Assembly: GCA_023411715.1 (NCBI GenBank)
Contig: JAEYOM010000123.1
Location: 20,225 to 84,224 of the forward strand
Reading direction: 5' to 3'
Source: Bacillota bacterium
GTDB taxonomy: Bacteria > Bacillota > Clostridia > Acetivibrionales > DTU013
Length of the DNA: 64,000 nt
The notes beneath the pieces were generated by a model that was not told the DNA's origin, did no database searches, and saw only the letters and a program-made list of their open reading frames with translations. Positions 45,158 to 63,815 of the stretch are shown here, piece by piece (position 1 is the first letter of the stretch; each line of letters opens with the position of its first letter). The position numbers and the translations under genes were made by a program.

Positions 45158-45172
45158 TTCCTTCCTCCGCTA

Positions 45173-47196: not shown

Positions 47197-47200
47197 GAGG

Positions 47201-48337
47201 TTATTTCCCCTCTCTGATAAATCTCATAAGTGCATCTTTATTTTCCTTAGGCGTTGTAGTCGGCCTGCCTAAATCATCCCTTGAGCCGAGAGCCACCAGT
47301 ATTTCTATAAAGCATATCCCCTGAACTTCCATGGCAGATCTGAGCACTTTCCGGAGTTCTGTCTGATCCGAAGCCCTGAAGCAGTTATTATATCCTGCTG
47401 CTTTGGCAAGTTCACAAAAATTGGTATTACCATATGCAACCGGCATACCGCCGACACTTTCATGTGCGCCATTATTGAAAACTATATGAACAAGGTTTTT
47501 GCATCCCGTTTTTGCCAAAATAACCGTACTACCCAAATGCATTATTGCGGCGCCATCGCCTTCTATACACCACACGCGCCTGTCCGGTGCTTCCATCGCT
47601 ATCCCCATGGCAATCATGGATGCATGTCCCATGGACCCTACAGTAAGAAAATCTTTTTCATGCCCCAGTTTCAAAGCCTCTCGGAGCTCAAACAATTCAC
47701 GCGAGGTCTTACCTGTAGTGGATACGAAAATATCCGTATCATCTGCAATTGTTATAATTGTCCTAAGTGCATCTTCCCGCTTCATCAAGTAATTATTTCC
47801 ATAATGAGGCGCGGCATCTGTCTCCAATGCACCCTTTCGAACGATGAAAGCTATACTCTTCCCCTCGGAAATAGTCGTCCTGCTCTCTTGGACAAATTTT
47901 AAAAATTCTTCCTGTTCCGTTTCCTTCGAAAGAATAAGGTATTTGATTTTCATTAATTCAAGAAGTTCTATCGTGACTTCGCCTTGAAAAGCATGCTGAG
48001 GCTCATCCTTGATTCCGGGTTCACCGCGCCAGCCTACTACGAAAACACAGGGAATTCCATATACCTTCTCATCCAATAAAGATGCCACAGGATTGATGAT
48101 ATTACCGATCCCGCTATTCTGAAGATATACCAAAGCAGGTCTTCCGGTGGCTATATAATGTCCGGAAGCCAGTCCGACTGCAGCACCTTCGTTAGCCGTA
48201 ACGACATGCCTATCACCCAGTTTATATTTCTCAAATAGAGTATTGCATAAAGCCTTAAGCTGGGAGTCCGGAACACCTGCATAATAATCTACTCCCAAGT
48301 ATTTTTGTAGAGTCTCCAAAAGCCAATCAATTTTCAT
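47201..48337 (-). CDS. ppd: phosphonopyruvate decarboxylase (ThDP-dependent)
   Basis: 378 aa. The ThDP motif is ...IEGDGAAIMHLGSTVILAKTGCKNLVHIVFNNGAHES.... Its size and its position beside pepM are characteristic. Confidence 0.85.
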   Translation of the reverse strand: MKIDWLLETLQKYLGVDYYAGVPDSQLKALCNTLFEKYKLGDRHVVTANEGAAVGLASGHYIATGRPALVYLQNSGIGNIINPVASLLDEKVYGIPCVFVVGWRGEPGIKDEPQHAFQGEVTIELLELMKIKYLILSKETEQEEFLKFVQESRTTISEGKSIAFIVRKGALETDAAPHYGNNYLMKREDALRTIITIADDTDIFVSTTGKTSRELFELREALKLGHEKDFLTVGSMGHASMIAMGIAMEAPDRRVWCIEGDGAAIMHLGSTVILAKTGCKNLVHIVFNNGAHESVGGMPVAYGNTNFCELAKAAGYNNCFRASDQTELRKVLRSAMEVQGICFIEILVALGSRDDLGRPTTTPKENKDALMRFIREGK

Positions 48338-50225: not shown

Positions 50226-50337
50226 TGTTGGTATTACACACCTTTTATATTATTCGAATAATGTATTATTCAGAAAGCATCCCCGTCGATCCCACCTTAT
50301 CGAGGATAAACGTAATTATCTTAATTAATATTATATT

Positions 50338-51240
50338 TTAGCTTATTTTATTAGTTGCCGGATCATAGTGTACGGAATATGTCGCTTTTTGAAATGTGCC
50401 CGCATCTTCAATAATGACCGTGCATGTTGAATTTTTTAACTTTTCTTGGGGAATAGTCACTTTGAAGCCACTGCTAAAATACTTTTGATTTTTAAAATTT
50501 TGTGATACATCAGGTCTTTCATAGCTTATTGTATCATATGTTTGAATTTCGCCATCGTTATTCTTGAATTCCAAATAAACATTTTGGAACAGTGTCGAGT
50601 GATTATTCACATAGGCCCATCCGTCCAAAATAACATTTCCATCAGCTTGAGTCGGGGCTATAGCAAACCAGACATTATCAGATTTATTTGTATCATCAAT
50701 ATTTTTAACCTGACCTGGAGTATATTCTCTTAAGCCTTTATTGTCCTTTATATATTTCCTTCCGGTTCTTGCCAAACCACTGCTGTAATCATTTTCCCAA
50801 TCATAAATAAGTAATTCATAAATACCATTTTTCATATTCAATGTTGAGAATTGTGTGCCGAACCCGTTATTATCGCCTTTGACCGTTAGCTCTGGGAAAA
50901 CTGATTTCAATTGGAATGAGGTCAGTTTGGCCGGGGCTATATAAGAATCATTTGAGCCTCTGAAAATAATACTTATTTTTTTATCAGAATTCAGATCTGC
51001 TGTTTCACAAAATGCCCAACCATTACAAGCAAAATCTTCTGCCATGTTTTCATATGCTTTTGAAAATCCTATGGCTTGATAAGCATCTGTATTTATAATC
51101 AAAGAACTTATCTCAGTTTTTTCCAGTTTTGCACTGCCTGATAATAGTATGATTACGTCGTTTGCATAAATTAAATAAATTATAAATAAAATCAGAGAAG
51201 CTATATAAATTATACTCCTCTTTTTAGATTTAATATTCAT
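50338..51240 (-). CDS. membrane-anchored protein of unknown function with two related beta-rich modules
   Basis: An N-terminal TM helix (IIYIASLILFIIYLIY). Two modules start ...CNGWAFCE... and ...LDGWAYVN.... ATGA overlap with the upstream gene. Confidence 0.5.
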   Translation of the reverse strand: MNIKSKKRSIIYIASLILFIIYLIYANDVIILLSGSAKLEKTEISSLIINTDAYQAIGFSKAYENMAEDFACNGWAFCETADLNSDKKISIIFRGSNDSYIAPAKLTSFQLKSVFPELTVKGDNNGFGTQFSTLNMKNGIYELLIYDWENDYSSGLARTGRKYIKDNKGLREYTPGQVKNIDDTNKSDNVWFAIAPTQADGNVILDGWAYVNNHSTLFQNVYLEFKNNDGEIQTYDTISYERPDVSQNFKNQKYFSSGFKVTIPQEKLKNSTCTVIIEDAGTFQKATYSVHYDPATNKIS

Positions 51241-52652
51241 TGGTTCGGTACCTCCACAGTTGGGAGATTAATGTTGAATAGCTTGCCAATCACTAACCTT
51301 GCCGTATTAACACCCGATTGATCTTTTATCTCATCGAACCTTTCATCCATATAATAAACTGCATTAAGAATATTACGCGCGTCAATATTTTCTACAATTG
51401 AATTACTGTTATTATCTTGAGTCCATCTTGCACTATGATCAGATTGTAAAATTATAATTGATTTAGGATCGTTTTTTATAACGTGCTTGATTGTTTCATC
51501 AGCGAGCTTCGTAATATACTTGTATTGATTCAAGTAATAATTATGATCTTTCCAGTCGCTGAGGCCAGCGAAATCAGGCATTTTACCATTTTCATCGAAT
51601 ACAAATGGTGCATGCGGGCTTTCGATGTGAGCGTATGTTAAAACTGGAACATCGCTATTTTCATTTGTTTCCTGAAGTTGATTGAAAGCATTTATTACAT
51701 TCTGACGATTTGCTAATTCATCACTTACACCCAGGAAGGGATAAAACATAGTATTTTCAAGCAATATTTTTGTAAAATCACCATAGCGGGCATTTACTTT
51801 ATTTTTTGCCCCTCCCACCACTCCATTCCATGTTATAAGGGATGACATATTGACAATTTCGTAGCCGTGATTGCTGAATAAACGGAACATCTCTGGATTT
51901 TGTCCGTAAGATAACCGTTTAGCTTGAATCATATTGTCTGTGACGACATAATTCAAATTGACAATATTCGTTGTAATTGTTATAGTATCGATACTTTCAT
52001 TATGACTTCCTAATGAAACGTTGAATCCCTCATTTTCCAGTGTCTGAGCAAAACCCGAATTATCATACACATAATATTTTTTAATGGAGTTAAAACTTGA
52101 ATATTCATCGAGTATTATATAATATACATTTGGATATAGTTTTTTTTCTGCAAACTTGGTATCGATTTTTGTTTTGTTATCAACCAATTTTGTTTTTTCT
52201 ATAATCGTTGGCATAGCAATAAGAAAATTAAGCAGAATAAGTGCACAAAATGCAATAGTAGTTACCATGTTAAATATTTTAGCTATTTCTACATTCATTT
52301 TTTTGTAAATCAGATAAGCAAAATGCAAAAATACAACGATCAATATCGGAGCTATATGCCAATATTTTAAAGGCATAAATAACTTAACGACTTTTTCGAT
52401 CAATACATAATTCAGAAACAATAACATAAATATGTTAACGATTAAGGCTGTTTTATTTGTATCTCTTACAAATAAGTAAAATATAAAACTTAGGATAATA
52501 GCTATACCAATAAAAATTATAAGAGGGTAAAGCATTTCATTTGCTGAAGTTTCGCCCACATTTTGGGTGTATAGAAAGATAATTGGGAAAACGGATAAAG
52601 CAAAAACAGAAAAGGTAGGGATAAGAATATCTTTTTTCTTATTGGTATACAA
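51237..52652 (-). CDS. LtaS/sulfatase-like (alkaline-phosphatase superfamily) polytopic membrane protein
   Basis: About 5 N-terminal TM helices, then an extracytoplasmic domain with ...YYIILDEYSS..., ...HIESPHAPF... and ...ILQSDHSAR... (metal/nucleophile-type motifs). The family assignment rests on pattern only. Confidence 0.55.
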   Translation of the reverse strand: MYTNKKKDILIPTFSVFALSVFPIIFLYTQNVGETSANEMLYPLIIFIGIAIILSFIFYLFVRDTNKTALIVNIFMLLFLNYVLIEKVVKLFMPLKYWHIAPILIVVFLHFAYLIYKKMNVEIAKIFNMVTTIAFCALILLNFLIAMPTIIEKTKLVDNKTKIDTKFAEKKLYPNVYYIILDEYSSFNSIKKYYVYDNSGFAQTLENEGFNVSLGSHNESIDTITITTNIVNLNYVVTDNMIQAKRLSYGQNPEMFRLFSNHGYEIVNMSSLITWNGVVGGAKNKVNARYGDFTKILLENTMFYPFLGVSDELANRQNVINAFNQLQETNENSDVPVLTYAHIESPHAPFVFDENGKMPDFAGLSDWKDHNYYLNQYKYITKLADETIKHVIKNDPKSIIILQSDHSARWTQDNNSNSIVENIDARNILNAVYYMDERFDEIKDQSGVNTARLVIGKLFNINLPTVEVPNQ

Positions 52653-53842: not shown

Positions 53843-53886
53843 AAGAAGCTGATATAAGCAAACCGCTTATATCAGCTTCTTTTTTT
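53843..53886. terminator. strong terminator hairpin
   Basis: A perfect 16-bp stem: AGAAGCTGATATAAGC (53844-53859) pairs with GCTTATATCAGCTTCT (53865-53880). T6 follows. Confidence 0.9.
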
Positions 53887-55033
53887 AACCTCTTTTAATT
53901 TTAAAATAAATTTTCTTAAGTGTTTTATATAATGATGAATTCTTATCAAATAATATAGTAGATATGATTTTGGCTTTATTGGCTTTTATATATTTTTCAA
54001 CGTCAAAGTCATTCTTACTGCCTACTACCATATCTTTAGGCAATAATCCCAATAAATCAACCTTGCATGAGATATCATGGAAGTCTTTTAATGAAAAATT
54101 ATATGACTTTTTGAATGTTTCATATATACCTGGCTCATCATAAACCCTCATGAAATAATTTATGGCTGCTAATAAAGGGATTTGAGGCATATAGTATTTT
54201 CCATCGAGCAGCAGGAAGAACTTTTCACAACATAGTTCCGTATAGGAGCTGGCGTTTTTATTCCTGAACATCTCGTGAAAAGCTTCCTTGAATAGTGGAT
54301 CCGGCATTCCTTCAAAAAAATTTGATAAAATGAAATAGGATTCCATTACATCCCGTATGGAATTGGTGATCTTCGGAGAACTCGTGTTTTCACCCGCGTG
54401 TATAAAGCGTCTGTGCTTAACCAGATATTCCTGGAATATATAAATCGGGTATTTCTTCACGATACGTGTCCACATGTCAAAATCCGGGAGCTGGCGCAAA
54501 GCTAAATTGTAGACACCTAATTCCTCATATATCTTTTTTCGTATAAGAATACTAGGGTGGCAAATACAATTGCCCTTAGTGAAAAAATACTGTACCCATT
54601 GGGCCTGAGTCCGGTTTGGCTGTTTGAAAACATTTATCCCAATATCCAGCATATTATCGTTTTCATCAATAAATTCAGCCCAGGCAAAGCAAGCGCCGCA
54701 TTCCTCATGTGATTCCAAATAGGCAACTTGTTTTTCCAGTCTTGTCGGTGCCCATACATCATCAGAATTGATGAGCGCTACATATTTTCCGGTTGTTTTT
54801 TCGATTACAAATTTATGGTTTATTGTAGCACCTTGGTTTTCATCGAATCTATAAAGTTGTATCCGCGGATCCTTATATTTTTTAATTACATTGATCGTAT
54901 CGTCAGTTGAGCAATCATCTGAAATCAAGAACTCAAAGTCTTGAAAAGTCTGCTGTAAAACACTGTCAATTGCTATAGACACATAATTTTGATGATTGTA
55001 CGACGGTAAAATAACACTCACCAGATGCGACAC
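53885..55033 (-). CDS. glycosyltransferase family 2
   Basis: VSVILPSYNHQNYVSIAIDSVLQQTF...ISDDCSTDDT...NSDDVW... Confidence 0.88.
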   Translation of the reverse strand: MSHLVSVILPSYNHQNYVSIAIDSVLQQTFQDFEFLISDDCSTDDTINVIKKYKDPRIQLYRFDENQGATINHKFVIEKTTGKYVALINSDDVWAPTRLEKQVAYLESHEECGACFAWAEFIDENDNMLDIGINVFKQPNRTQAQWVQYFFTKGNCICHPSILIRKKIYEELGVYNLALRQLPDFDMWTRIVKKYPIYIFQEYLVKHRRFIHAGENTSSPKITNSIRDVMESYFILSNFFEGMPDPLFKEAFHEMFRNKNASSYTELCCEKFFLLLDGKYYMPQIPLLAAINYFMRVYDEPGIYETFKKSYNFSLKDFHDISCKVDLLGLLPKDMVVGSKNDFDVEKYIKANKAKIISTILFDKNSSLYKTLKKIYFKIKRG

Positions 55034-55048
55034 TGGCCTGACCTCCTT

Positions 55049-55708
55049 TTACTTGAAAACTATCCTATCATTATTTTCCCTTTTTAGTCTAGCTGGGTTT
55101 CCCGTATAAATTCCATTTTTCTCGACGGAGCGATACACAACTGAACCCATCGATACGATAGACCATTCGCCGACCTCAACTTTTTCCCTTATTACCGATC
55201 CGGCCCCGATAAAACAATTTTCATGAATTCTGCATCTTCCTGCAACAGTCACACCTATTGATAAAACAGAGTTCTTGCCTATCATGCTATCATGCGCGAC
55301 AGTAGATTGATTATAAATTAGTACATTATTTTTTATATCCGCGTTAGATGATACACATACGAATGGATATAGTATAATGCCTCTTCCGATCCGAACAGCT
55401 GGAGAAATCACAGCTGTAATGTCTATCACGTTTGCAAGCTCGTAACCATCAGATAGGATCTTGTGTGAAATATTCTCACGGGCAGAAGGCTCACCATTAG
55501 CAATTACAATTTCAGCATCACTCGAAGAAAAAAGCTTGACAAAACTTTTATACGGGTAAACCCTTCTATCATAAAACCAGCCTTGCTCTTTTGTATCATC
55601 AATGAAACAAATTTCGTCCCATTGCGATTTCTTATCATTTGCTCTGACTGCGATATCACAGACCTCTCTGCCAACTCCCCCGGCACAGTAAATAAAAAGT
55701 TTCCTCAT
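55049..55708 (-). CDS. NeuD/PglD/VioB-family sugar N-acetyltransferase (left-handed beta-helix)
   Basis: MRKLFIYCAGGVGREVCDI is a Rossmann-like N-domain. Hexapeptide repeats follow (...IGKNSVLSIGVTVAGRCRIHENCFIGAGSVI...). Confidence 0.85.
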   Translation of the reverse strand: MRKLFIYCAGGVGREVCDIAVRANDKKSQWDEICFIDDTKEQGWFYDRRVYPYKSFVKLFSSSDAEIVIANGEPSARENISHKILSDGYELANVIDITAVISPAVRIGRGIILYPFVCVSSNADIKNNVLIYNQSTVAHDSMIGKNSVLSIGVTVAGRCRIHENCFIGAGSVIREKVEVGEWSIVSMGSVVYRSVEKNGIYTGNPARLKRENNDRIVFK

Positions 55709-55717
55709 GCCTTTTAC

Positions 55718-56644
55718 CTAACCTTTCAGCTTGTCCCATATCTTCGGCGGAGTAAGGATCTTGAAAATATATATTATAATTGGAGGAGTAAAATCTTTAA
55801 TGCTTTTAAAAGCCATACGGATTTTTGTAAATTTAGAGCTTTTTAATATCTGCACTGGAATAGCAACACTTTGCCTTATTTCCAACCTTCTTTTATGTTC
55901 TAAAAATTCTGCCTCAAAAATATGGTTGGTAAACTCGTTATATGTATCAATAAGAGCAATCAGCTTTTCGTTTTTCTCCGCTTCCTTGCTACCACTCCAA
56001 ACTCCATTGGAGTGAATCCTGTATATGCTCATCACATCAGAAAGATAGCCGATCATTCCATTCTTCCCTACAACTATATTGGTGATCCAGTCATAGGATG
56101 TCATTTCAAACAGGCCATCCGGTAAAGCATCTATTGCAGTTTTTCTATATACGCATGTCGAAAAGTTCCCGATCAGATTATCTCTGACAATATCTCGTGA
56201 AGTGATGAGCTGATACCTGTTTGACGGTTCCCAGCAAGGCTGCACGTTATATTTTGCATCTTCAAAATCAGCTACCAGATACCTGTTGAATGTCATCGGA
56301 CATTCATAATGATGGTCGAGAAAATTGACATGCTTTTGTAGCCTGTACGGGTCAGTCCATATATCGTCACCCTCCATAACGGCAACGTACTGAGCATCAC
56401 ATGCGCAGAAAGCCCGCTCATAATTCTTTGTGATGCCCAGATTCTTTTCCGATTCCAGATAAATGAACGGAATGCTTGAACTTTTCTCGTAAGATCTGAT
56501 TTTTTCGATTGTACCATCTGTTGACATGTCATCTGCCACGATGATATTAAAATCAAAATTTGTCTGCTGCGCTAATATACTTTCGAGGGATTCTCCAATA
56601 TAATTCGAGTGATTGTATGTAACCAGGATTACGTTCAGTTTCAT
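55718..56644 (-). CDS. glycosyltransferase family 2
   Basis: MKLNVILVTYNHSNYIGESLESILAQ...VADDMSTDGT...EGDDIW... Confidence 0.88.
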   Translation of the reverse strand: MKLNVILVTYNHSNYIGESLESILAQQTNFDFNIIVADDMSTDGTIEKIRSYEKSSSIPFIYLESEKNLGITKNYERAFCACDAQYVAVMEGDDIWTDPYRLQKHVNFLDHHYECPMTFNRYLVADFEDAKYNVQPCWEPSNRYQLITSRDIVRDNLIGNFSTCVYRKTAIDALPDGLFEMTSYDWITNIVVGKNGMIGYLSDVMSIYRIHSNGVWSGSKEAEKNEKLIALIDTYNEFTNHIFEAEFLEHKRRLEIRQSVAIPVQILKSSKFTKIRMAFKSIKDFTPPIIIYIFKILTPPKIWDKLKG

Positions 56645-56697: not shown

Positions 56698-58530
56698 CTA
56701 TATTTTAAACTTAATGTTTCGACCGAATATTTTCCACCATACGGTGTTTTCTATTAGCTTTCTTTGAAGTTGATAATCCAGGATCTTTTCTTCCATATCG
56801 TCGATCACTTTATCTTTCCTATCATTCTCTTCCTTCAACTTTGTATATTCAGCACTTAATCTGTCAGCATCCGCCATGATCATAGAATAATGGTTTTTCA
56901 GTTCTTTATAACTATTCTCCATCTCACCATATGTTATTTCTTTCCTTTCGTTATTCTCTTTCAGTTCCAGGTACTCTTTTCGGATATTCTTAGCATCTGT
57001 CTCGACCAGAGAATAACGTTCCTGTAACTCCTTATAACCATTCTCCAGTTCGCCATATGTTATCTCTTTACTGTCGTTATACTCTTTCAGTTCCAGGTAT
57101 TCTTTTCGGATATTTTTAGCATCTGTCTCGACTAAAGCATATTTCTTTTGTAATTCCTTGTAGTCGGATTCCAAGTTGGAATAACTTTTTTGGATGTGCT
57201 TGGTATAGTATTCAAGCGAAACGTACTGTTCCTTTAACTTAGAATAAGCTTCCTTCGATTCGTTATTTATATCAGAACAGACAAACCACATATTTTTTTC
57301 GTAATCTAAGATTTCCTGTTCTATCAATTGCATCAGCAACTGTTTTGATTTATCGTCCAGCAATGTGGCCTTTTCCGATAAGAAAACGCCTCTGGAAACC
57401 ATTTGAATCTGTTCATTACTGCAGATTCTTTTTTCTATCAAGTAGTCGTAAGCCGCTTCTTGCGTTACTATTATTTTTCTAAAAAAATTCGATTTAGTAA
57501 CCCTGCGCAATAGCTTGTCTGAATCAGGGTTGTTTAGCTTGAAGGTTCCTTCAGTACATAATTCGAAAATGAAAGGTATTTGATTCTGTTCGATCGATTC
57601 TATCAGGAGATTATTATCGAATGAGCAAAAATAGGCAAGTTTAGCCTGTATTGTTTCAGGAAGTCTGTATCCGTTCCAATTGGTTTTTTCATGTCCTATG
57701 CCCGGATTATATTCAAGATATTCAGTAAATCCGCTATTGTTAAAAGTACATATCTGGTAAGGAAAAGTATCATCAACAATTACAAGATCAACTGGATCCC
57801 ACGAATTTTTTAAACTAGAGTAGATCTGCACACCGGACCTAATTATTTTATCTTTATTTGACACATTTTCAGTATTATCTTTTGTTTTGTCAGCTATTAA
57901 TATAATTCCGTAATTATCTGTTTCAAAAACAGGTATATATTTTTCCTTAGCCTTTTTATAAACAATACTCACACTAGGCCAATCAATGTCATCGAAAATT
58001 ATAATACCACCATTTCGAACCAACGGAATGTAATTTATGGCATCCGACTCTACAAACGATGTATCATGATTTCCATCAATATGGAGCATGTCGATTTCAA
58101 TACCGTTTTTAATAAAAAAATCCACCGATCCCTCAGATGTATCTCTGATAAGATCAACTATATTATCAAACCCAAAACGGCCCTTCAAATAAGCAACTTC
58201 CTGATAAAGCCTTTCAAAATTCAGAGTAGATGTAGCTTCTTCAACATATTTTTTAACTGTATCAACCGCGTTTTTCTCATCAAGGCAGCTTGCTAGGTAT
58301 GGATCAATACCATATGCCTTTCCGCCGTTTTCCTTTATAGCAACTGAGACAGAATATAGACTCTTTCCCCTGTATACTCCGATTTCAACATAATTTTTAA
58401 ACTTGCATTCCTTAAAAATATATGCCATCAGAAAGCATTTATCGAGACTGCCTCCGCCTAATATATCAGCATATATGCTGTCATAAATACTTTTTACTTT
58501 ATTATAAAACTCCTGCATGGGTAGGCTCAA
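56698..58530 (-). CDS. class I SAM-dependent methyltransferase (Methyltransf_24-like) + uncharacterised middle domain + C-terminal coiled coil built from 42-aa repeats
   Basis: The N-terminus has ...YVEIGVYRGKSLYS..., ...LHIDGNHD... and ...GGIIIFDDIDW.... The C-terminus has KNIRKEYLELKE(Y/N)N(D/E)(S/R)KEITYGE(L/M)EN(G/S)YKEL... twice plus degenerate copies, with heptad-like spacing. Confidence 0.8.
   Translation of the reverse strand: MSLPMQEFYNKVKSIYDSIYADILGGGSLDKCFLMAYIFKECKFKNYVEIGVYRGKSLYSVSVAIKENGGKAYGIDPYLASCLDEKNAVDTVKKYVEEATSTLNFERLYQEVAYLKGRFGFDNIVDLIRDTSEGSVDFFIKNGIEIDMLHIDGNHDTSFVESDAINYIPLVRNGGIIIFDDIDWPSVSIVYKKAKEKYIPVFETDNYGIILIADKTKDNTENVSNKDKIIRSGVQIYSSLKNSWDPVDLVIVDDTFPYQICTFNNSGFTEYLEYNPGIGHEKTNWNGYRLPETIQAKLAYFCSFDNNLLIESIEQNQIPFIFELCTEGTFKLNNPDSDKLLRRVTKSNFFRKIIVTQEAAYDYLIEKRICSNEQIQMVSRGVFLSEKATLLDDKSKQLLMQLIEQEILDYEKNMWFVCSDINNESKEAYSKLKEQYVSLEYYTKHIQKSYSNLESDYKELQKKYALVETDAKNIRKEYLELKEYNDSKEITYGELENGYKELQERYSLVETDAKNIRKEYLELKENNERKEITYGEMENSYKELKNHYSMIMADADRLSAEYTKLKEENDRKDKVIDDMEEKILDYQLQRKLIENTVWWKIFGRNIKFKI
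56914..57165 (-). repeat. 2 x 126-bp tandem coding repeat (plus degenerate flanking copies)
   Basis: 56914-57039 and 57040-57165 align by eye with few substitutions. 126 nt corresponds to 42 aa. Confidence 0.85.
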
Positions 58531-58541
58531 AGTATTCCTCC

Positions 58542-59666
58542 TTAAATTAACTTACTTTTCAGATTGCGGATTATATCACAGATCACACTAATATTTTCAT
58601 CTTCAAGTCCGGCATACATCGGGAGTGCAAGCACCCTGCCCGCAACATAACGAGATATCGGAAGCTCATATTGCTTGAACCTGTCTCGATAGCATTCCAA
58701 GTCTGATGTTAATGGGTAAAAATATTTTCGTGTAAAGATATTATGCTTTTTTAGCGCATCGAAAAGATCATCTCTAGTGTAACCAGTAATTTTTTCATTT
58801 ATAACGACGGGAAAGTAGGAATAGTTATGTAAAACATTTGCGTCGCTGTTTATATTCAGTGTTTTTACTCCATTACAATCGGCTAAATAACTTTCATACA
58901 TTTCTGCAACATGTTTTCTGATCTGAACATTTTCATCGATATGGTGAAGATTGCAAATCCCCATGGCTGCCTGAAATTCATTCATTTTCGCATTCAAACC
59001 GACACTTACTACACTTTCTGGTCCTTCAATACCGAAATTCCGTAAATTTTTTAAATTCCTTTCGAGGCCTTTATCCGCGAATACCAGGGCACCGCCTTCT
59101 ATCGTGTTGAATACTTTAGTTGCGTGGAATGAGAACATTGAAATGTCTCCATAGTTTGCTATTGATTTCCCATTCACCTTAACTCCAAACGCATGCGCTG
59201 CATCATATATTAATTTCAAATTGTACTTCTTGGCAATTTTATCCAGCGTTTCCAAATTGCATGGCTGTCCATAAACGTGCACTGGTAGGATTGCGCAAGT
59301 CTTTTCGGTTATTAGCGCTTCCAACTTACTTTCATCTATAGTATAGTCACTATATTTAATATCACAGAAAACAGGCGTCAAACCATTCATAACTATAGAA
59401 TGAGTCGTTGAAACAAACGTGAAAGGTGTTGTTATAACCTCGCCTTTCAACTCAAGTGCTTTCAATGCTATATCCAGAGCCATGTGCCCATTAACGTAAA
59501 GCTGCAGGTTCTCACAATCAAAATAATTTTTTAGAGCTTCCTCCAGTTCGATATAGAGCGGGCCGTTATTAGTCATCCATCCGCTTTCCCATATTGTTTT
59601 TATTTTTTCAATATACTCTTCAAAGGGCGGAACTGATGAACGAGTCACCAATATATTTTTATTCAT
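58542..59666 (-). CDS. DegT/DnrJ/EryC1/StrS-family sugar aminotransferase
   Basis: ...LYVNGHMALDIALKAL..., ...DAAHAFG... and ...SFHATKVFNTIEGG... (PLP-Lys). 374 aa. Confidence 0.9.
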   Translation of the reverse strand: MNKNILVTRSSVPPFEEYIEKIKTIWESGWMTNNGPLYIELEEALKNYFDCENLQLYVNGHMALDIALKALELKGEVITTPFTFVSTTHSIVMNGLTPVFCDIKYSDYTIDESKLEALITEKTCAILPVHVYGQPCNLETLDKIAKKYNLKLIYDAAHAFGVKVNGKSIANYGDISMFSFHATKVFNTIEGGALVFADKGLERNLKNLRNFGIEGPESVVSVGLNAKMNEFQAAMGICNLHHIDENVQIRKHVAEMYESYLADCNGVKTLNINSDANVLHNYSYFPVVINEKITGYTRDDLFDALKKHNIFTRKYFYPLTSDLECYRDRFKQYELPISRYVAGRVLALPMYAGLEDENISVICDIIRNLKSKLI

Positions 59667-59693: not shown

Positions 59694-60416
59694 TCAGTAG
59701 AATGACTGGTACTGTTCACATACCTCATCTGCATCCCCAATCATCTTAAGCCTGCCATTTTCAAGCCATATAACACGATCACACAACTCCCTTATCTGTT
59801 CCAGGCTATGAGAAACAAATAAAACTGTGGTTCCGCCACTCATAAGCTCAACCATTCTTTCCTTGCTCTTTTTTTGGAATGCTTCATCTCCTATGGACAG
59901 GATCTCATCTACGATAAGTATTTCCGGTTCCACCACGGTCGCAATAGAAAATGCAAGGCGCATCATCATTCCAGAAGAATAGTTGCGAATGGGCACGTCA
60001 ATGAACTTTTCCAGTTCTGAAAACTCAACTATCTCGTCATATTTATCACGTAAAAACTTTTCCGAAAAACCTAAAATGGCTCCATTAAGAAAAATATTTT
60101 CTCTGCCGGACAAATCGGAATCAAACCCGGAACCCAACTCTAACATTGGCACAATATTACCTTCTACCCTGACTTGTCCTATTGTAGGTTTCAAAATTCC
60201 GGATATCACTTTCAAAAGGGTGCTTTTTCCTGCACCGTTACGTCCGATTATACCCATTACTTCACCTTTTCGCACTTCGAAACTGATGCCTTTTAAAGCC
60301 CAGAATTCTTCATAGGCCAATTTACTTTTAAGTAAGGCAACAGTATATTCTTTAAGGCTTTGTATGCGGTCATGAGATATCATATATCTAACGGAAACAT
60401 CTTCAACTACTATCAT
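59694..60416 (-). CDS. polysaccharide/teichoic-acid export ABC transporter ATP-binding protein (Wzt/TagH-like, no C-terminal carbohydrate-binding domain)
   Basis: Walker A is GRNGAGKST, the signature is YSSGMMMRLAF, and Walker B is ILIVDE. Only 240 aa. Confidence 0.9.
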   Translation of the reverse strand: MIVVEDVSVRYMISHDRIQSLKEYTVALLKSKLAYEEFWALKGISFEVRKGEVMGIIGRNGAGKSTLLKVISGILKPTIGQVRVEGNIVPMLELGSGFDSDLSGRENIFLNGAILGFSEKFLRDKYDEIVEFSELEKFIDVPIRNYSSGMMMRLAFSIATVVEPEILIVDEILSIGDEAFQKKSKERMVELMSGGTTVLFVSHSLEQIRELCDRVIWLENGRLKMIGDADEVCEQYQSFY

Positions 60417-60429
60417 AAATGCTCCTGTC

Positions 60430-61875
60430 CTATATTTTTAATATAAACTTATCCTGCGATTTTTTAAAAATCAATATCCCAGCTATCAGCGGTATAAACG
60501 CAGCTATTATGCAAAACAGATAAGCTTGGGGTTCGGGTGAAACTCCATCAAGCATAATAGTCCTGGTAAACCTGATAAAATGATAAAGCGGGTTCATTTT
60601 AAACAATGGTAACAGTTGCTGTGGCAGAATACTCTCAGGGTAAAAAATCGGTGTCGCATACATCCATAATACACTAATCACATTCCAAAGGAATTGTGTA
60701 TCCCTAAAATATACCATCGCCGCCGATAAAATGAAACTCAGTCCTATGCATAACACAACAGTACAAATAATGCTGAATGGTAAAAGCAAAAGTGCCGGTC
60801 TTATAGGTGCATGCGTTACTAATGCTGCAATAAATAACGGAATCATCGATATTAGGAAATTAATTACAGATGATAAAACTCTTGAAACAGGGAAAATATA
60901 TTTTGGAATATATACTTTCGTGATCAACGATGTATTGCCGATAATCGACATTAATCCCATACTTGTCGCCTCAGAGAAAAAGCTGAAAAACACTATTCCA
61001 ATTAACAAGTAAACCACGAAATTAGGTATATGGTTATTGAACAGTGTAGAAAAAATAATATATTGGACTAACATTGTCAGAAGGGGATTGAGAAAACTCC
61101 ACAGCACTCCCAGTACGGAACGTTTATACTTAGTTTTAAAATCTCTGGCGACCAGTTGCTTTAATAAGAAGCTGTAACGGGTAAAGTTCATTATTACTGT
61201 CAGGGTCAAGCTCCTTCTATTTTTTTTCTGTTTATTGATAAGTACCATGGAGTAAATGGCAAACAGTATTCCTAAGATACTCATTATTACCCAGTAATAA
61301 CGTCCAAAACCGATATTATTGCGCCCATAATAACTTACGCATAAAGTACCTTTCTGCTTTTGACCGTTTATATTTAATACTCCACCGCCCGAAAAAACAC
61401 TTTTCTGATCATACCATACAGAAATTGTATTGCCTGGCGTACCGGCAGGGACATTCAGAACCAACCCTATTTCTTTTCCTTTTACCGATTTGATCGGGGA
61501 GTTAAGTGCAATGCTGCTGTATGCATTGTCCGAAAGCTCGGAAAATGATACATTTTTCTGTCCCAGGAGTTTTCCGCTCAATATATCTACCAGCTTTAGT
61601 TCCAGTGTACCTTGCTCATGTATCCCGCCAGTCGAAGATAAAATAGATATGGCTTCTATTTCATCCGTCGCCGGAATAAATGTCTGCGTAACTACGATAT
61701 CCTTCGTCATTTCTCCGATAGGAATGGTCGACGAATCAGTCCCCTTATATTCGATCAAGGCTGAATGTTTTAGCGCTTCTCCGCCTATAAAATAAAAACA
61801 GACTACGACAATTATATAAATGAATAAAGAAACAATACATCCCTGTTTTAAAGTCAGTCGCTTATTAATCTTCAT
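60430..61875 (-). CDS. ABC-2 type polysaccharide export permease (Wzm/TagG-like) with an N-terminal TM-domain-TM extension of about 215 aa
   Basis: The C-terminal half has ...LLKQLVARDFKTKYKRSVLGVLWSFLNPLL... (ABC-2 entry motif) plus 6 TM helices. The N-terminal half has one TM helix, about 170 aa of beta-rich sequence, then a second TM helix. Confidence 0.85.
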   Translation of the reverse strand: MKINKRLTLKQGCIVSLFIYIIVVVCFYFIGGEALKHSALIEYKGTDSSTIPIGEMTKDIVVTQTFIPATDEIEAISILSSTGGIHEQGTLELKLVDILSGKLLGQKNVSFSELSDNAYSSIALNSPIKSVKGKEIGLVLNVPAGTPGNTISVWYDQKSVFSGGGVLNINGQKQKGTLCVSYYGRNNIGFGRYYWVIMSILGILFAIYSMVLINKQKKNRRSLTLTVIMNFTRYSFLLKQLVARDFKTKYKRSVLGVLWSFLNPLLTMLVQYIIFSTLFNNHIPNFVVYLLIGIVFFSFFSEATSMGLMSIIGNTSLITKVYIPKYIFPVSRVLSSVINFLISMIPLFIAALVTHAPIRPALLLLPFSIICTVVLCIGLSFILSAAMVYFRDTQFLWNVISVLWMYATPIFYPESILPQQLLPLFKMNPLYHFIRFTRTIMLDGVSPEPQAYLFCIIAAFIPLIAGILIFKKSQDKFILKI

Positions 61876-61890
61876 CTATTTTATTAACCC

Positions 61891-62736
61891 TCATATTTCA
61901 ATCTCTTTCAAATACCTTTTCACTGCATCCTGCCAATCTGGCAAACGCTTGAATCCCGCTTCATCCAAGCTTGCTTTGCTCATTCTTGAATTCATGGGGC
62001 GTATAGCTCTGGCTGGATATTCAGCAGTCAGTATGGAATTTACCCTTGTCTCGTACCCAGCTACCTTGAATATTTCCGTTGCCAATTCGGTCCAGGAACA
62101 AAAGCCCTCATTTGTGGCATGGTATGTTCCATATTTTTCTGTAATAACCATGTCGCAAAGCAGTGGAGCAAGATCCGCAGTATACGTCGGTGAGCCGATC
62201 TGGTCGCATACTACACTGACTTCCTTTCTCTCTTTACCCAACCGTAACATAGTTTTAATGAAATTATTTCCGTTCTTACCGAATACCCACGAAATCCGAA
62301 CAATAAAATATCTGGTCAAAAGCTCCCGGACAGCAAGCTCTCCTTTAAGCTTCGTCTGGCCGTATACACTTATCGGCCCTGTTGAGTCGTTCACCTCATA
62401 TTCTCGGTTGCCTAAACCTGGGAACACGTAATCTGTACTTATGTAGACCATTTTGGCATTTATTTCATTGCAGACAGCAGCTATATTTCTTGGTCCCTGA
62501 GCATTAACAGCCTCACATAATTCAACATTATCTTCAGCTTTATCCACTGCCGTATAGGCCGAGCAATGGATCACCACATCCGGGTAATAATTCTTTATAA
62601 ATATAGATGTTGCTACCAAATCCGTTATATCAAAATCTTCTATATCGGAACCACGGCATTCTATGCCGCGTGACTGCAACGATTTTAACACATCATAACC
62701 TAGCTGACCCTTAACACCGGTAACCAATACTTTCAT
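61891..62736 (-). CDS. rfbD: dTDP-4-dehydrorhamnose reductase
   Basis: MKVLVTGVKGQLG..., ...STDYVF... and ...YGQTKLKGE.... 281 aa, adjacent to rfbB and rfbC. Confidence 0.93.
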   Translation of the reverse strand: MKVLVTGVKGQLGYDVLKSLQSRGIECRGSDIEDFDITDLVATSIFIKNYYPDVVIHCSAYTAVDKAEDNVELCEAVNAQGPRNIAAVCNEINAKMVYISTDYVFPGLGNREYEVNDSTGPISVYGQTKLKGELAVRELLTRYFIVRISWVFGKNGNNFIKTMLRLGKERKEVSVVCDQIGSPTYTADLAPLLCDMVITEKYGTYHATNEGFCSWTELATEIFKVAGYETRVNSILTAEYPARAIRPMNSRMSKASLDEAGFKRLPDWQDAVKRYLKEIEI

Positions 62737-62780
62737 TTATAATAAACCCCTTTATTCCTGCCTTGATAAAAAGCCTTCGA

Positions 62781-63815
62781 TCATGCAATATACGCCGAAC
62801 GGTTCCCATAAATTCTGTCATAATATTGCTGATACTCGCCGTTAATAATGTGTTCCCACCATGTTTTGTTTTCAAGATACCATTTTATCGTCTTTCTGAT
62901 ACCCTCGTCAAATTTAGTTTGTGGTAACCAGCCGAGCTCTCTGTGTATTTTAGACGGATCAATCGCATAACGCATATCATGCCCAGGTCGGTCGGAAACG
63001 AAATTGATCAGGCTCTCCGGCTTACCGAGCTCACGAAGGATGGTCCTAACCACCTCAAGGTTCGTACGTTCATTATGTCCTCCGATATTGTATACCTCAC
63101 CCTCGCAACCCTTATGTATTATCAGGTCAATTGCGGAACAATGGTCTTCTACATAAAGCCAATCCCGGACATTTTCGCCTTTTCCGTAAACAGGCAGAGG
63201 CTTATCATTTAAGGCATTTGCAATCATAAGCGGTATTAATTTCTCAGGAAAATGATACGGCCCATAATTATTGGAGCAGCGTGAAATAGTAATTGGCAGT
63301 TTAAATGTCCGATAATATGCCAGAGCAAGCAAATCTGCAGAAGCTTTTGAAGAAGAATATGGACTTGAAGTATGAAGCGGCGTTTCCTCCGTAAAAAACA
63401 GATCAGGTCTGTCAAGCGGGAGATCACCGTATACCTCGTCGGTAGATACCTGATGAAATCGCTGTATTCCGTATTTTCTGCAAGCATCAAGCAAGACACC
63501 GGTACCAACTATATTAGTCTGCAGGAAAAGTCCCGGATTTTCTATAGATCGGTCCACATGTGATTCGGCGGCAAAGTTTACAATGATATCAGGTCGCTCA
63601 TTTTCAATCAGATCGTAAACTGTATCTCTAACCGAAATATCCCCTTTCACGAATAAGAAATCAGGGTTATCCATAATGTCTTCCAGGGTTTCCATATTGC
63701 CTGCGTAGGTTAACGCATCCAAGCAAATAATTTTATATCCATCATGTTTTTTTAGCATATAATGTACGAAGTTGCCACCGATAAAACCAGCGCCGCCTGT
63801 CACCAATATCTTCAT
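62781..63815 (-). CDS. rfbB: dTDP-glucose 4,6-dehydratase
   Basis: MKILVTGGAGFIGGNF..., ...QVSTDEVYG... and ...SPYSSSKASADLL.... 344 aa. Confidence 0.95.
   Translation of the reverse strand: MKILVTGGAGFIGGNFVHYMLKKHDGYKIICLDALTYAGNMETLEDIMDNPDFLFVKGDISVRDTVYDLIENERPDIIVNFAAESHVDRSIENPGLFLQTNIVGTGVLLDACRKYGIQRFHQVSTDEVYGDLPLDRPDLFFTEETPLHTSSPYSSSKASADLLALAYYRTFKLPITISRCSNNYGPYHFPEKLIPLMIANALNDKPLPVYGKGENVRDWLYVEDHCSAIDLIIHKGCEGEVYNIGGHNERTNLEVVRTILRELGKPESLINFVSDRPGHDMRYAIDPSKIHRELGWLPQTKFDEGIRKTIKWYLENKTWWEHIINGEYQQYYDRIYGNRSAYIA

What the first reader, a model, noticed from the sequence alone, without database searches (positions are those of the whole stretch)
56698..58530. Methyltransferase with a repeat-built coiled-coil tail: candidate WbdD-like chain terminator and molecular ruler in a Gram-positive ABC-transporter-dependent pathway
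The locus uses a Wzm/Wzt-type exporter (59694-61875) and has no Wzx/Wzy. In the E. coli O9a paradigm, chain length in such pathways is set by WbdD. WbdD is a methyltransferase(-kinase) that caps the non-reducing end, and its C-terminal coiled coil acts as a physical ruler.

The 610-aa protein here has an N-terminal SAM methyltransferase, an unassigned middle domain of about 170 aa, and a C-terminal coiled coil of about 200 aa. The coil includes two near-identical 42-aa units encoded by a 126-bp tandem DNA repeat (56914-57165), plus degenerate copies.

Recombination or slippage between the 126-bp units would change the coil length in 6-heptad steps. That would be a simple way to vary glycan length between strains.
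Basis: partly seen in the sequence, partly recalled or inferred. Interest (0 to 1): 0.6.

Follow-up and report, generated by a model that had tools for sequence, protein, structure and literature searches.

The report
Coiled-coil sugar methyltransferase with dead glycosyltransferase
A gut-type Clostridia bacterium carries, inside an ABC-transporter cell-surface sugar-polymer locus, a sugar O-methyltransferase mounted on a roughly 25-nm coiled-coil stalk. It probably caps and sizes the polymer as E. coli WbdD does, but it is not a WbdD relative, it carries the stump of a lost glycosyltransferase, and its internal repeat is ancient rather than a strain-to-strain length switch.

Summary
The ORF, the methyltransferase, the coiled coil and the 126-bp repeat are all real.

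- **Coil:** 24 unbroken heptads (168 aa, about 25 nm), with Tyr at position a and Leu/Ile/Val at d. 40 of 48 core positions are filled, against 21±1.6 in shuffles.
- **Middle domain:** it is not a kinase. It is the N-terminal half of a GT-B glycosyltransferase.
- **Orthologues:** positional orthologues in two syntenic loci (Desulfosporosinus acididurans M1 and a Clostridia MAG) are full MT–GT–coil proteins with the same T-x-W-W tail. Here the donor-binding half is deleted and GT motifs are mutated. The MT keeps 31 of 34 invariant residues.
- **Repeat:** the units are only about 80% identical, with a longest exact run of 18 nt. pS is 0.56 and dN/dS about 0.12. This is an old triplication kept by selection, not a slippery repeat.
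- **For a capping role:**
  - The nearest folds are sugar O-methyltransferases.
  - Clade members have MT–coil and MT–coil–GT2 layouts.
  - One clade member lies next to a CBM-bearing Wzt.
- **Against the full O9a model:** Wzt lacks a CBM in all three loci, and there is no sequence-level WbdD homology.

Verdict: a plausible capping/ruler protein (about 0.5) and a new variant of a known kind.

The parts
56698..58530 (-). CDS of the MT / GT-remnant / coiled-coil protein. 610 aa from the TTG start; 606 aa from the ATG at 58518. The stop codon is at 56698-56700.
   Evidence: An identical sequence occurs in an independent Logan assembly of SRR13358445.
58537..58543 (-). Shine-Dalgarno AAGGAGG, overlapping the stop codon of the upstream aminotransferase gene and 6 nt before the TTG start.
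57889..58518 (-). Class I SAM-dependent, cation-dependent-type sugar O-methyltransferase domain (aa 1-210 in 606-aa numbering).
   Evidence: - Pfam PF13578, 70 bits.
- AF2 pLDDT is mostly above 90.
- Foldseek top hits are M. hassiacum MeT1, CCoAOMT/norbelladine OMTs and the SpnH rhamnosyl 4'-O-MT.
- 31 of 34 family-invariant positions are kept.
57805..57873 (-). Linker helix between the MT and the GT remnant (aa 216-238).
   Evidence: AF2 secondary structure. This segment is poorly conserved among orthologues.
57379..57798 (-). Vestigial N-terminal Rossmann-like half of a GT-B glycosyltransferase (aa 241-380). It has a deletion of about 30 aa, and 12 of the 41 family-invariant positions counted over aa 241-420 are changed; eight of the twelve lie in this segment, including R260N, E263G, G323E and G325T.
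   Evidence: Alignment to the full MT-GT-coil orthologues and to a stand-alone 378-aa GT of the same family. AF2 shows a beta/alpha pattern at pLDDT 65-91. hhalign anchors the end of the N domain to a canonical GT4 (weak).
57250..57378 (-). Junction (aa 381-423): the interdomain linker helix and what remains of the first strand of the lost C-terminal GT domain ('MWFVCS' against the family's 'LDICF').
   Evidence: alignment
56746..57249 (-). Coiled coil of 24 heptads in one unbroken register (aa 424-591). Position a is mostly Tyr and position d is Leu/Ile/Val. About 249 Å long if fully extended.
   Evidence: Weak SMC/helix-rich NCBIfam hits. The same Y-x-x-L heptads occur in the orthologues.
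57043..57168 (-). Repeat unit U1 (42 aa = 6 heptads).
56917..57042 (-). Repeat unit U2 (79% aa / 80% nt identical to U1).
56791..56916 (-). Repeat unit U3, degenerate (38-45% aa identity to U1 and U2).
56701..56745 (-). Post-coil C-terminal motif T-V-W-W-K-I-F-G plus a basic tail. It is conserved as T-x-W-W-(K/R/N)-x-(F/L/I)-G in all coil-bearing orthologues. It is a candidate membrane-docking or partner-docking element.
   Evidence: Related S-W-K-(I/V)-T-x-P-L-R motifs follow the coils of P0114 and P0118.
59694..60416 (-). Wzt-type ABC ATPase, 240 aa, with no carbohydrate-binding module.
60430..61875 (-). Wzm-type permease, 481 aa, with an N-terminal extension of TM helix, beta-rich domain and TM helix.
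   Evidence: The length is conserved in the syntenic loci.
58542..59666 (-). DegT/DesI-type dTDP-4-keto-6-deoxyhexose aminotransferase, immediately upstream of the target gene.
53885..56644 (-). Downstream block of GT2 (55718-56644), NeuD/PglD/VioB-type N-acetyltransferase (55049-55708) and GT2 (53885-55033). The GT2s are candidate polymerising enzymes.
   Evidence: The block is syntenic and 64-67% identical in D. acididurans.
61891..63815 (-). rmlD (61891-62736) and rmlB (62781-63815). rmlC, rmlA, a GT2 and a Wzy_C protein follow beyond the window.

Best explanation
**What the protein is.** It is a cytoplasmic, probably membrane-tethered or complex-tethered capping enzyme for a rhamnose / 4-acetamido-4,6-dideoxyhexose glycan. 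The glycan is built on a lipid carrier and exported by Wzm/Wzt.

**Proposed mechanism.**
- A parallel coiled coil of 24 heptads (about 25 nm) oligomerises the protein.
- The conserved C-terminal W-W-basic motif docks the stalk at the membrane or on the polymerising GT2s or the transporter.
- The N-terminal metal-dependent sugar O-methyltransferase is thereby held at a fixed distance. Only chains that have grown long enough reach it.
- O-methylation of the non-reducing terminal sugar then stops extension.

**How it evolved.** The protein descends from an MT-GT4-coil ancestor, a form still present in D. acididurans and a Clostridia MAG. In that ancestor the distal GT probably adds a terminal sugar that the MT then methylates. 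In this lineage:
- The donor-binding half of the GT was deleted.
- The acceptor-side half was kept, possibly as a glycan-binding or structural module.
- A 6-heptad coil module was triplicated.

**Shown versus inferred.** Shown here: the domain anatomy, the homology, the synteny, the heptad register, the age of the repeat and the intact MT residues. Inferred: the capping activity, the ruler function, the docking role of the tail and the oligomeric state.
For: - **Locus context and synteny.**
  - The gene order is rmlB-rmlD-Wzm-Wzt-DegT-[this gene]-GT2-AcT-GT2.
  - The neighbours are 62-80% identical to those of D. acididurans.
- **MT fold.** The nearest structures are sugar/phenol O-methyltransferases that act on glycosides, namely MeT1 of the mycobacterial methylmannose polysaccharide pathway and SpnH rhamnosyl 4'-O-MT.
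- **MT integrity.** 31 of 34 invariant residues are kept, including the E-I-G-x-x-x-G, I-D-P, D-G-N-H and D-D-x-D motifs.
- **Clade architectures.** The same MT clade occurs as MT-coil (P0114, a coil of about 15 copies of a 14-aa repeat) and as MT-coil-GT2 (P0118). It also occurs directly after a Wzt with the Wzt_C CBM in L106.
- **Coil quality.**
  - 40 of 48 core positions are filled, with 0 of 20,000 shuffles reaching that value.
  - The register is unbroken across the repeat units.
  - Both units are under purifying selection, with dN/dS about 0.12.
- **Variable coil length.** It ranges from 13 to about 26 heptads among orthologues, while the terminal W-W motif is conserved.
- **Derived state.** The tree nests this protein inside the full-length clade (98/95 support), so the GT loss is derived.
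- **Literature.**
  - The WbdD coil is a roughly 200 Å ruler, and insertions or truncations shift the modal chain length (PMC5082667).
  - Coiled coils are described as the characteristic marker of terminators in ABC-dependent assembly (PMC11231755).
  - The WsaE N-terminal MT caps a Gram-positive S-layer rhamnan (PMC2943079).
Against: - **No CBM.** Wzt has no carbohydrate-binding module here or in the two syntenic loci, and no Wzt_C domain was found in the genome (91% complete). In every terminated prototype the CBM is present (PMC11231755).
- **No WbdD homology.** There is none at sequence level.
- **Geometry in the orthologues.** The GT sits on the same, distal side of the coil as the MT. 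A ruler therefore needs the polymerase to be recruited at the C-terminal end, which is untested.
- **Weak amphipathicity.** The hydrophobic moment of the tail is modest (0.24).
- **Polar heptads.**
  - The AF2 monomer breaks the helix at the one polar (Asn-a / Lys-d) heptad in each unit.
  - A segmented or folded-back helical arrangement is therefore not excluded.
- **No chemistry.** There are no glycan structure data of any kind.
Confidence: 0.5

Rival explanations
1. The protein is a decorating methyltransferase on a scaffold. The MT methylates internal residues, or all repeat units, of the glycan. The coil only oligomerises the protein and tethers it to the membrane-bound assembly complex. 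Chain length is set by export coupling, as in the CBM-less K. pneumoniae O2a system.
For: - Wzt lacks a CBM in all three syntenic loci and none is found in the genome.
- CBM-less transporters define the export-coupled mode (PMC11231755, PMC3560663).
- In the orthologues the GT and the MT are both at the same end of the coil.
Against: - A conserved, selected 25-nm stalk whose length varies among orthologues is costly for a mere tether.
- The MT clade is associated with a CBM-bearing Wzt and with canonical terminator-coil-polymerase layouts elsewhere.
Confidence: 0.27
2. The gene is a decaying relic. After an in-frame deletion removed the GT donor domain, the gene no longer has a role and is drifting.
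For: - The GT C-terminal half is lost, about 30 aa more are deleted, and 12 of 41 GT-invariant positions are changed.
- It is the least conserved gene of the block, at 48% identity against 62-80% for its neighbours.
- Its tree branch is longer than those of its sisters.
Against: - The 610-codon frame is intact and has a good RBS.
- The MT keeps 31 of 34 invariant residues.
- The heptad register is perfect over 24 heptads, and dN/dS between the units is about 0.12.
- The C-terminal motif is conserved.
- The GT remnant is still 50% identical to its orthologue, close to the MT's 56%.
Confidence: 0.08
3. One reading: the 126-bp repeat is a currently active length switch. Slippage or unequal recombination between the units changes coil length, and hence glycan length, between strains.
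For: - The units are in frame and equal 6 heptads.
- The coil did historically expand by duplication of this module.
- Heptad-number variation acting as a ruler between isolates is documented for H. pylori FutA/FutB (PMC2583950).
- A related MT-coil protein (L104/P0114) carries a 42-bp tandem array.
Against: - The units are only 80% identical, with a longest exact match of 18 nt.
- pS = 0.56 indicates an old duplication with no homogenisation.
- The only other assembly carrying the gene is identical over 7,833 nt.
- No variants exist in a database of 5.8 billion proteins.
Confidence: 0.07

Closest known systems
WbdD of E. coli O8/O9a and K. pneumoniae O3/O5 (chain-terminating methyltransferase or kinase-methyltransferase with a coiled-coil ruler)
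   Same: An N-terminal capping-type methyltransferase, then a long coiled coil of comparable length (about 25 nm here against about 20 nm in WbdD), then a short C-terminal element. It is encoded in a Wzm/Wzt locus and is a cytoplasmic protein.
   Different: - There is no detectable sequence relationship, and the MT subfamily differs (Methyltransf_24 / CCoAOMT-like).
- There is no kinase.
- A dead half-glycosyltransferase lies between the MT and the coil.
- The coil core is Tyr-rich.
- The partner Wzt has no CBM.
WbbB (K. pneumoniae O12), ORF6 (O7) and ORF7 (O4): multi-module coiled-coil terminator proteins (PMC11231755)
   Same: A terminating module at one end of a coil, with variable distribution of GT modules on the same polypeptide. 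ORF6(O7) also has an 'unannotated' domain between the MT and the coil. The full-length orthologues of this protein (MT-GT4-coil) fit this modular logic.
   Different: - In ORF6(O7) the middle domain is a kinase. Here it is a truncated GT-B N domain.
- In those proteins the polymerising GTs follow the coil. Here nothing follows it except a 15-aa motif.
- All of those systems have a CBM on Wzt.
WsaE of Geobacillus stearothermophilus NRS 2004/3a (S-layer glycan methyl-rhamnosyltransferase; PMC2943079)
   Same: It is the Gram-positive precedent. An N-terminal O-methyltransferase is fused to glycan GTs in an rml/wzm/wzt locus that also carries a Wzy_C-type transferase. The methyl cap is proposed to terminate the rhamnan.
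   Different: - No coiled coil is reported for WsaE, and its in vitro methylation was independent of chain length.
- Its GT domains are active.
H. pylori FutA/FutB heptad-repeat ruler (PMC2583950)
   Same: Tandem heptad repeats encoded by DNA repeats determine the size of the glycan that gets modified. It is the known precedent for repeat number acting as a glycan ruler between isolates.
   Different: There the repeats are short (21 bp), near-identical and demonstrably variable between isolates. Here the 126-bp units are old and diverged, and no variation is known.
P. aeruginosa CPA rhamnan locus, PA5455-PA5459 (PMC3560663)
   Same: An ABC-transporter-dependent rhamnan in which a glycosyltransferase together with methyltransferases, rather than export, is proposed to control chain length. 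This parallels the GT+MT pairing in the full-length orthologues.
   Different: The CPA proteins are separate polypeptides with no coil fusion described, and the organism is Gram-negative.

Membership tests
WbdD family (E. coli O9a/O8) | Catalytic domain homologous to the WbdD methyltransferase | tested here: not met
   phmmer against all PDB chains at E<=1 returns CCoAOMT/norbelladine OMTs and no WbdD entry. WbdD is also absent from the Foldseek top 50.
WbdD family (E. coli O9a/O8) | Kinase domain next to the methyltransferase (O9a type) | tested here: not met
   The middle domain aligns to the N-terminal half of a GT-B glycosyltransferase family. There are no kinase hits in Pfam or NCBIfam.
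WbdD family (E. coli O9a/O8) | Extended C-terminal coiled coil | tested here: met
   24 heptads in one register; 40 of 48 core positions filled against 21±1.6 in shuffles.
WbdD family (E. coli O9a/O8) | C-terminal membrane-binding / polymerase-recruiting region | tested here: inconclusive
   A 15-aa T-x-W-W-basic motif is conserved in all coil-bearing orthologues, but its hydrophobic moment is only 0.24. No binding test was possible.
Capped-glycan ABC-transporter systems (coiled-coil terminator plus CBM-bearing Wzt) | Encoded in a Wzm/Wzt locus without a Wzx flippase | tested here: met
Capped-glycan ABC-transporter systems (coiled-coil terminator plus CBM-bearing Wzt) | Carbohydrate-binding module (Wzt_C) on the transporter ATPase | tested here: not met
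   Wzt is 240 aa with the ABC_tran domain only and 241 aa in both syntenic loci. PF14524 was not found in the genome, which is 91% complete.
Capped-glycan ABC-transporter systems (coiled-coil terminator plus CBM-bearing Wzt) | Non-reducing terminal cap on the glycan that blocks extension | not testable with these tools
   This needs glycan chemistry (NMR or MS).
Methyltransf_24 (PF13578) glycan O-methyltransferase clade fused to glycan GTs (WsaE-like layout) | PF13578 above the curated cut-off with SAM-binding and metal-binding motifs intact | tested here: met
   70 bits against a cut-off of 26.3. 31 of 34 clade-invariant positions are kept.
Methyltransf_24 (PF13578) glycan O-methyltransferase clade fused to glycan GTs (WsaE-like layout) | Direct homology to the characterised WsaE | not tested
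The resemblance rests on the literature description (PMC2943079).
GT-B glycosyltransferase, Glycos_transf_1 (PF00534) type | C-terminal nucleotide-sugar-binding Rossmann domain | tested here: not met
   PF00534 is present in the orthologues (38.7 bits in P0003) and absent here. The alignment shows the coil starting right after the first strand of that domain. No copy exists elsewhere in the genome.
GT-B glycosyltransferase, Glycos_transf_1 (PF00534) type | N-terminal (acceptor-side) Rossmann domain | tested here: met
   This segment is 50% identical to the corresponding segment of P0003, and 29 of 41 invariant positions are kept. The same segment forms the N-terminal half of a stand-alone 378-aa GT. 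AF2 shows a beta/alpha pattern.

The most novel reading that the evidence does not exclude
This may be a natural 'GT-dead' terminator working with a CBM-less exporter. In this small Clostridia family, chain length would be set by a Tyr-core coiled-coil ruler that carries a capping module, with no cap-gated export. That would be a third mode alongside the O9a mode (ruler plus CBM gate) and the O2a mode (export-coupled, no ruler). In this lineage the retained acceptor-side half of the lost glycosyltransferase would have been repurposed as a glycan-end-binding module that presents the chain terminus to the methyltransferase. The coil would have been lengthened by three 6-heptad modules to retune the length.
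Probability: 0.2. Interest if true: 0.6.

Novelty: new variant of a known kind. Interest (0 to 1): 0.42.

Why it matters
Chain-length control of ABC-transporter-dependent glycans has been worked out almost entirely in Enterobacteria. In Gram-positive bacteria (S-layer glycans, rhamnose-rich wall polysaccharides) the length-setting factor is largely unknown. For WsaE, an 'additional factor' was explicitly postulated (PMC2943079).

This small family offers a testable candidate for that factor, made up of:
- an MT (± GT);
- a Tyr-core coiled coil;
- a W-W tail.

One member is in a culturable organism, D. acididurans M1.

The present protein is a natural deletion variant that separates the methyltransferase/coil function from the glycosyltransferase. 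If the ruler works without a CBM on Wzt, it would also loosen the assumed obligatory link between capping and gated export.

The practical stakes are modest. The organism is an uncultured gut-type Clostridia bacterium, and the concept itself is already established.

Tried and rejected
**Ideas rejected**
- *Kinase fold for the middle domain.* Rejected because the domain aligns to the N-terminal half of a GT-B family.
- *Domain fission, with the GT C-terminal half encoded elsewhere.* Rejected because the genome holds no other match to the family's GT region.
- *Cytoplasmic CBM hidden in the Wzm N-terminal extension.* Rejected on topology. Both flanks of the two extra TM helices are strongly basic, so the beta-rich domain should face outward.
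- *Assembly artefact.*
  - Judged unlikely, because an independent Logan assembly gives the identical 7,833 nt.
  - The units are also too diverged to collapse in a short-read assembly.

**Searches and models that led nowhere**
- The AF2 model of the middle domain alone, run without an alignment, was useless (pLDDT 34). No fold search of that domain could therefore be made, and the Foldseek hits for the full model are dominated by the MT.
- Pfam on the isolated N-half segments gave nothing relevant: no hit for the query or the P0003 segment, and one sub-threshold chance hit (DUF5498, E = 0.044) for the P0007 segment.
- phmmer of the orthologue's GT region against the PDB gave no hits.
- hhalign of the N-half alone against a canonical GT4 was not significant (E = 0.82). 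The whole GT region aligned only weakly (E = 7.6e-4, probability 25%).
- Tail-only homology searches found only the query itself.
- The look-up of encoding contigs on the 606-aa form found nothing.

**Tools or sources unavailable**
- Mann, Kimber & Whitfield 2019 (Glycobiology 29:822), the census of terminators, is not held. What is said about it here comes from its citation in PMC11231755 and from memory.
Full report
**1. Observation**

The minus-strand ORF 56698..58530 exists and encodes 610 aa from a TTG start. An AAGGAGG box lies 6 nt upstream of that TTG. Residue numbers below use the 606-aa form that starts at the ATG at 58518; add 4 for the 610-aa form.

Pfam detects only Methyltransf_24 (aa 48-182, 70 bits against a cut-off of 26.3).

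Tandem Repeats Finder reports a 126-bp period at 56906-57132. In frame this gives three units:
- U1: aa 451-492, window 57043-57168.
- U2: aa 493-534, window 56917-57042.
- U3: aa 535-576, window 56791-56916, degenerate.

U1 and U2 are 79% (protein) and 80% (DNA) identical. Their longest exact DNA match is 18 nt. 'Near-identical' is therefore too strong.

**2. The coiled coil**

Written in sevens, aa 424-591 keep one register for 24 heptads.
- Position a reads YYTYYYAYNYYYAYNYYYAYNIIR.
- Position d reads LLILLVILKLLVILKMLILLKMYI.

Forty of 48 a/d positions are hydrophobic or Tyr. In 20,000 shuffles of the same residues the mean was 21.0±1.6, the maximum was 29, and none reached 40. There is no proline.

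Each 42-aa unit is exactly six heptads: five canonical and one polar (Asn at a, Lys at d). AF2 run as a monomer predicts helices over aa 389-601, with breaks at the polar heptads and low confidence. This is expected for a coil modelled without its partners. If fully extended, the coil is about 249 Å long, or 62 Å per unit.

**3. What the 'unassigned middle domain' is**

The closest homologues are:
- P0003, from Desulfosporosinus acididurans (754 aa).
- P0004 (747 aa).
- P0005 (785 aa).
- P0024 (736 aa).

All four share the same layout: an MT, then a complete GT-B glycosyltransferase with a Pfam Glycos_transf_1 C-terminal half, then a Tyr/Leu-heptad coil, then a terminal T-x-W-W-(K/R/N)-x-(F/L/I)-G motif. 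The query ends ...NTVWWKIFGRNIKFKI.

Its middle domain aligns with the N-terminal half of that GT. The same segment forms residues about 17-170 of a stand-alone 378-aa GT in another Clostridia genome. AF2 gives it a Rossmann-like beta/alpha pattern at pLDDT 65-91.

The remnant is degraded in three ways:
- The donor-binding C-terminal half is missing. The coil starts right after the vestige of its first strand.
- About 30 further residues are deleted within the N-terminal half.
- 12 of 41 family-invariant positions are changed, including R260N and E263G in the F-R-x-x-E-F motif and G323E and G325T in the P-G-G-G-F loop.

By contrast, the MT has lost only 3 of 34 invariant positions. No other copy of this GT family, nor of its C-terminal half, is found in the genome, which is 91% complete. 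The domain is therefore a catalytically dead remnant. It is not a kinase and not an active GT.

**4. Orthology and direction of change**

Two genomes carry the same gene block: D. acididurans M1 (L012/L101) and an uncultured Clostridia MAG (L013/L100). The order is rmlB-rmlD-Wzm(479-481 aa)-Wzt(241 aa)-DegT-[MT-GT-coil]-GT2-acetyltransferase-GT2. The second genome also has the LtaS-like, 300-aa and YidC-TagF genes seen in the window.

The neighbours are 62-80% identical to those of D. acididurans. The target gene is only 48% identical, the lowest in the block.

A maximum-likelihood tree of the MT plus GT-N region gives two results:
- The five coil-bearing proteins group together (99/98 support).
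- The query is sister to P0003+P0004 (98/95), inside a clade whose other members all have the full GT.

The loss is therefore derived, and the query branch is the longest of the three.

All three query units best match a single segment of P0003's coil (aa 676-714). Orthologue coils have 13-18 heptads, against 24-26 here. The coil was thus lengthened in this lineage by triplication of a 6-heptad module.

**5. Age of the repeat**

Nei-Gojobori counts for U1 against U2 give pS = 0.56 (dS about 1.0), pN = 0.11 and dN/dS about 0.12. Only 24 synonymous sites are available, so these values are rough.

The duplication is old, and both copies have been kept by purifying selection. With exact matches no longer than 18 nt, there is no sign of ongoing slippage, unequal recombination or homogenisation.

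An independent Logan assembly of run SRR13358445 is identical over 7,833 nt, including the repeat and the deletion junction. No other allele exists in the protein collections.

**6. What the methyltransferase looks like**

By sequence and fold it is a cation-dependent class I O-methyltransferase. PDB sequence hits are CCoAOMT and norbelladine OMTs. The Foldseek top hits are:
- Mycobacterium hassiacum MeT1, a methylmannose-polysaccharide O-methyltransferase.
- The plant OMTs.
- SpnH, the spinosyn rhamnosyl 4'-O-methyltransferase.

No WbdD structure appears. The similarity to WbdD is therefore one of architecture, not of family.

**7. Evidence that this MT clade caps glycans**

- In the 1.8-billion-protein library the clade includes two telling members.
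  - P0114 (also L104, a Defluviitaleaceae MAG) is an MT followed directly by a coil. The coil has about 15 tandem 14-residue repeats encoded by a 42-bp DNA array, and then an S-W-K-I-T-x-P-L-R tail.
  - P0118 is MT-coil-(S-W-K-V-T-x-P-L-R)-GT2, the classic terminator-ruler-polymerase order.
- In a Victivallaceae MAG (L106) an MT of this clade (44% identical) lies immediately after a 444-aa Wzt that carries the Wzt_C carbohydrate-binding module. The locus also shares DegT, GT2 and rmlB homologues. That ORF is interrupted by an N-run in the record.
- The literature supplies the framework.
  - WbdD's coil holds the capping domains about 200 Å from the polymerase, and its length sets the modal chain length (PMC5082667).
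  - Coiled coils are described as the characteristic marker of terminators, with variable module distribution (PMC11231755).
  - In the Gram-positive G. stearothermophilus the N-terminal MT of WsaE makes the 2-O-methyl cap, but an extra length-determining factor was postulated (PMC2943079).

**8. What does not fit**

- In all terminated prototypes the transporter ATPase carries a CBM that recognises the cap (PMC11231755). Here Wzt is 240 aa with the ABC domain only, as in both syntenic loci, and no Wzt_C domain is found in the genome.
- The 230-aa N-terminal extension of Wzm has basic residues on the cytoplasmic flanks of both extra TM helices. Its beta-rich domain should therefore be extracytoplasmic and cannot read a cytoplasmic cap.
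- In the orthologues the GT lies on the same side of the coil as the MT. The ruler model therefore requires that the GT2 polymerases dock at the C-terminal W-W motif, which is untested.

**9. Conclusion**

The most likely reading (about 0.5) is a WbdD-like capping O-methyltransferase on a coiled-coil stalk. It would derive from an MT-GT-coil ancestor by loss of the GT donor domain and triplication of a 6-heptad module, and it works with a CBM-less exporter.

The rivals are:
- a decorating MT on a scaffold, with export-coupled length control (about 0.27);
- a decaying relic (about 0.08);
- an active repeat-number switch (about 0.07).

**10. Organism**

It is an uncultured Clostridia (Bacillota) bacterium. 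Its aconitase is 87% identical to that of uncultured Oscillospiraceae MAGs. None of three same-genus genomes carries the gene. 'Gram-positive' is therefore reasonable by phylogeny.

Noticed in passing
window 60430-61875 (-): The Wzm permease has a roughly 230-aa N-terminal extension: a TM helix (aa 12-31), a beta-rich domain of about 160 aa, then a second TM helix (aa 193-213). The flanks are basic, so the domain should face outward. The extension is conserved in length in the two syntenic loci (481 and 479 aa), while Wzt lacks a CBM in all three.
   Followed up: partly
L104 5117-6532 (Defluviitaleaceae MAG WQVC01000106.1) = P0114: An MT of the same clade is fused directly to a coil made of about 15 tandem 14-residue (2-heptad) repeats, 'LLAELEASRSHADV'. 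The coil is encoded by a 42-bp DNA array (77-82% matches) and ends in SASWKITNPLRALKRVF. This is a cleaner WbdD(O8)-like candidate, and a better place than the present gene to look for repeat-number variation.
   Followed up: partly
window 56701-56745 (-); P0003, P0004, P0005, P0024 C-termini; P0114 aa ~448-460; P0118 aa ~369-382: A short motif recurs immediately after the coil. It reads T-x-W-W-(K/R/N)-x-(F/L/I)-G in the Tyr-coil family and S-x-S-W-K-(I/V)-T-x-P-L-R in other MT-coil proteins. It may be a common docking element of coiled-coil glycan terminators.
   Followed up: no
L106 999-3187 (Victivallaceae MAG CAYMSF010000089.1): A Wzt with a Wzt_C CBM (444 aa) is followed directly by an MT 44% identical to the query MT, in a locus that shares DegT, GT2 and rmlB homologues. 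The MT ORF is broken by an N-run in the record, so its full architecture is unknown.
   Followed up: partly
L015 2598-4493 (-), i.e. contig C22 about 2.4-4.3 kb beyond the window end: The head of the locus, outside the window, encodes a 631-aa Wzy_C-family membrane protein (O-antigen-ligase or WsaB-like oligosaccharyltransferase type), a further GT2 (315 aa), rmlA and rmlC. A Wzy_C protein (616 aa) also closes the D. acididurans locus. This hints at protein (S-layer?) or wall glycosylation.
   Followed up: partly
window 44018-52652 (-): The same operon direction carries a phosphonate module (a PEP mutase fused to a cytidylyltransferase, a phosphonopyruvate decarboxylase-like TPP enzyme, an Fe-ADH and an NTP transferase). 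It also carries a YidC-like::TagF-like fusion, an LtaS-like protein and a 300-aa protein. The last three are also present in the L013 locus, so the glycan is probably phosphonate-decorated. Earlier notes of the scan cover this module.
   Followed up: partly
window 56746-57249 (-): The coil core is unusually Tyr-rich, with 14 of 24 a positions being Tyr, and the same holds in all orthologues. What this implies for oligomeric state or partner specificity is unknown.
   Followed up: no
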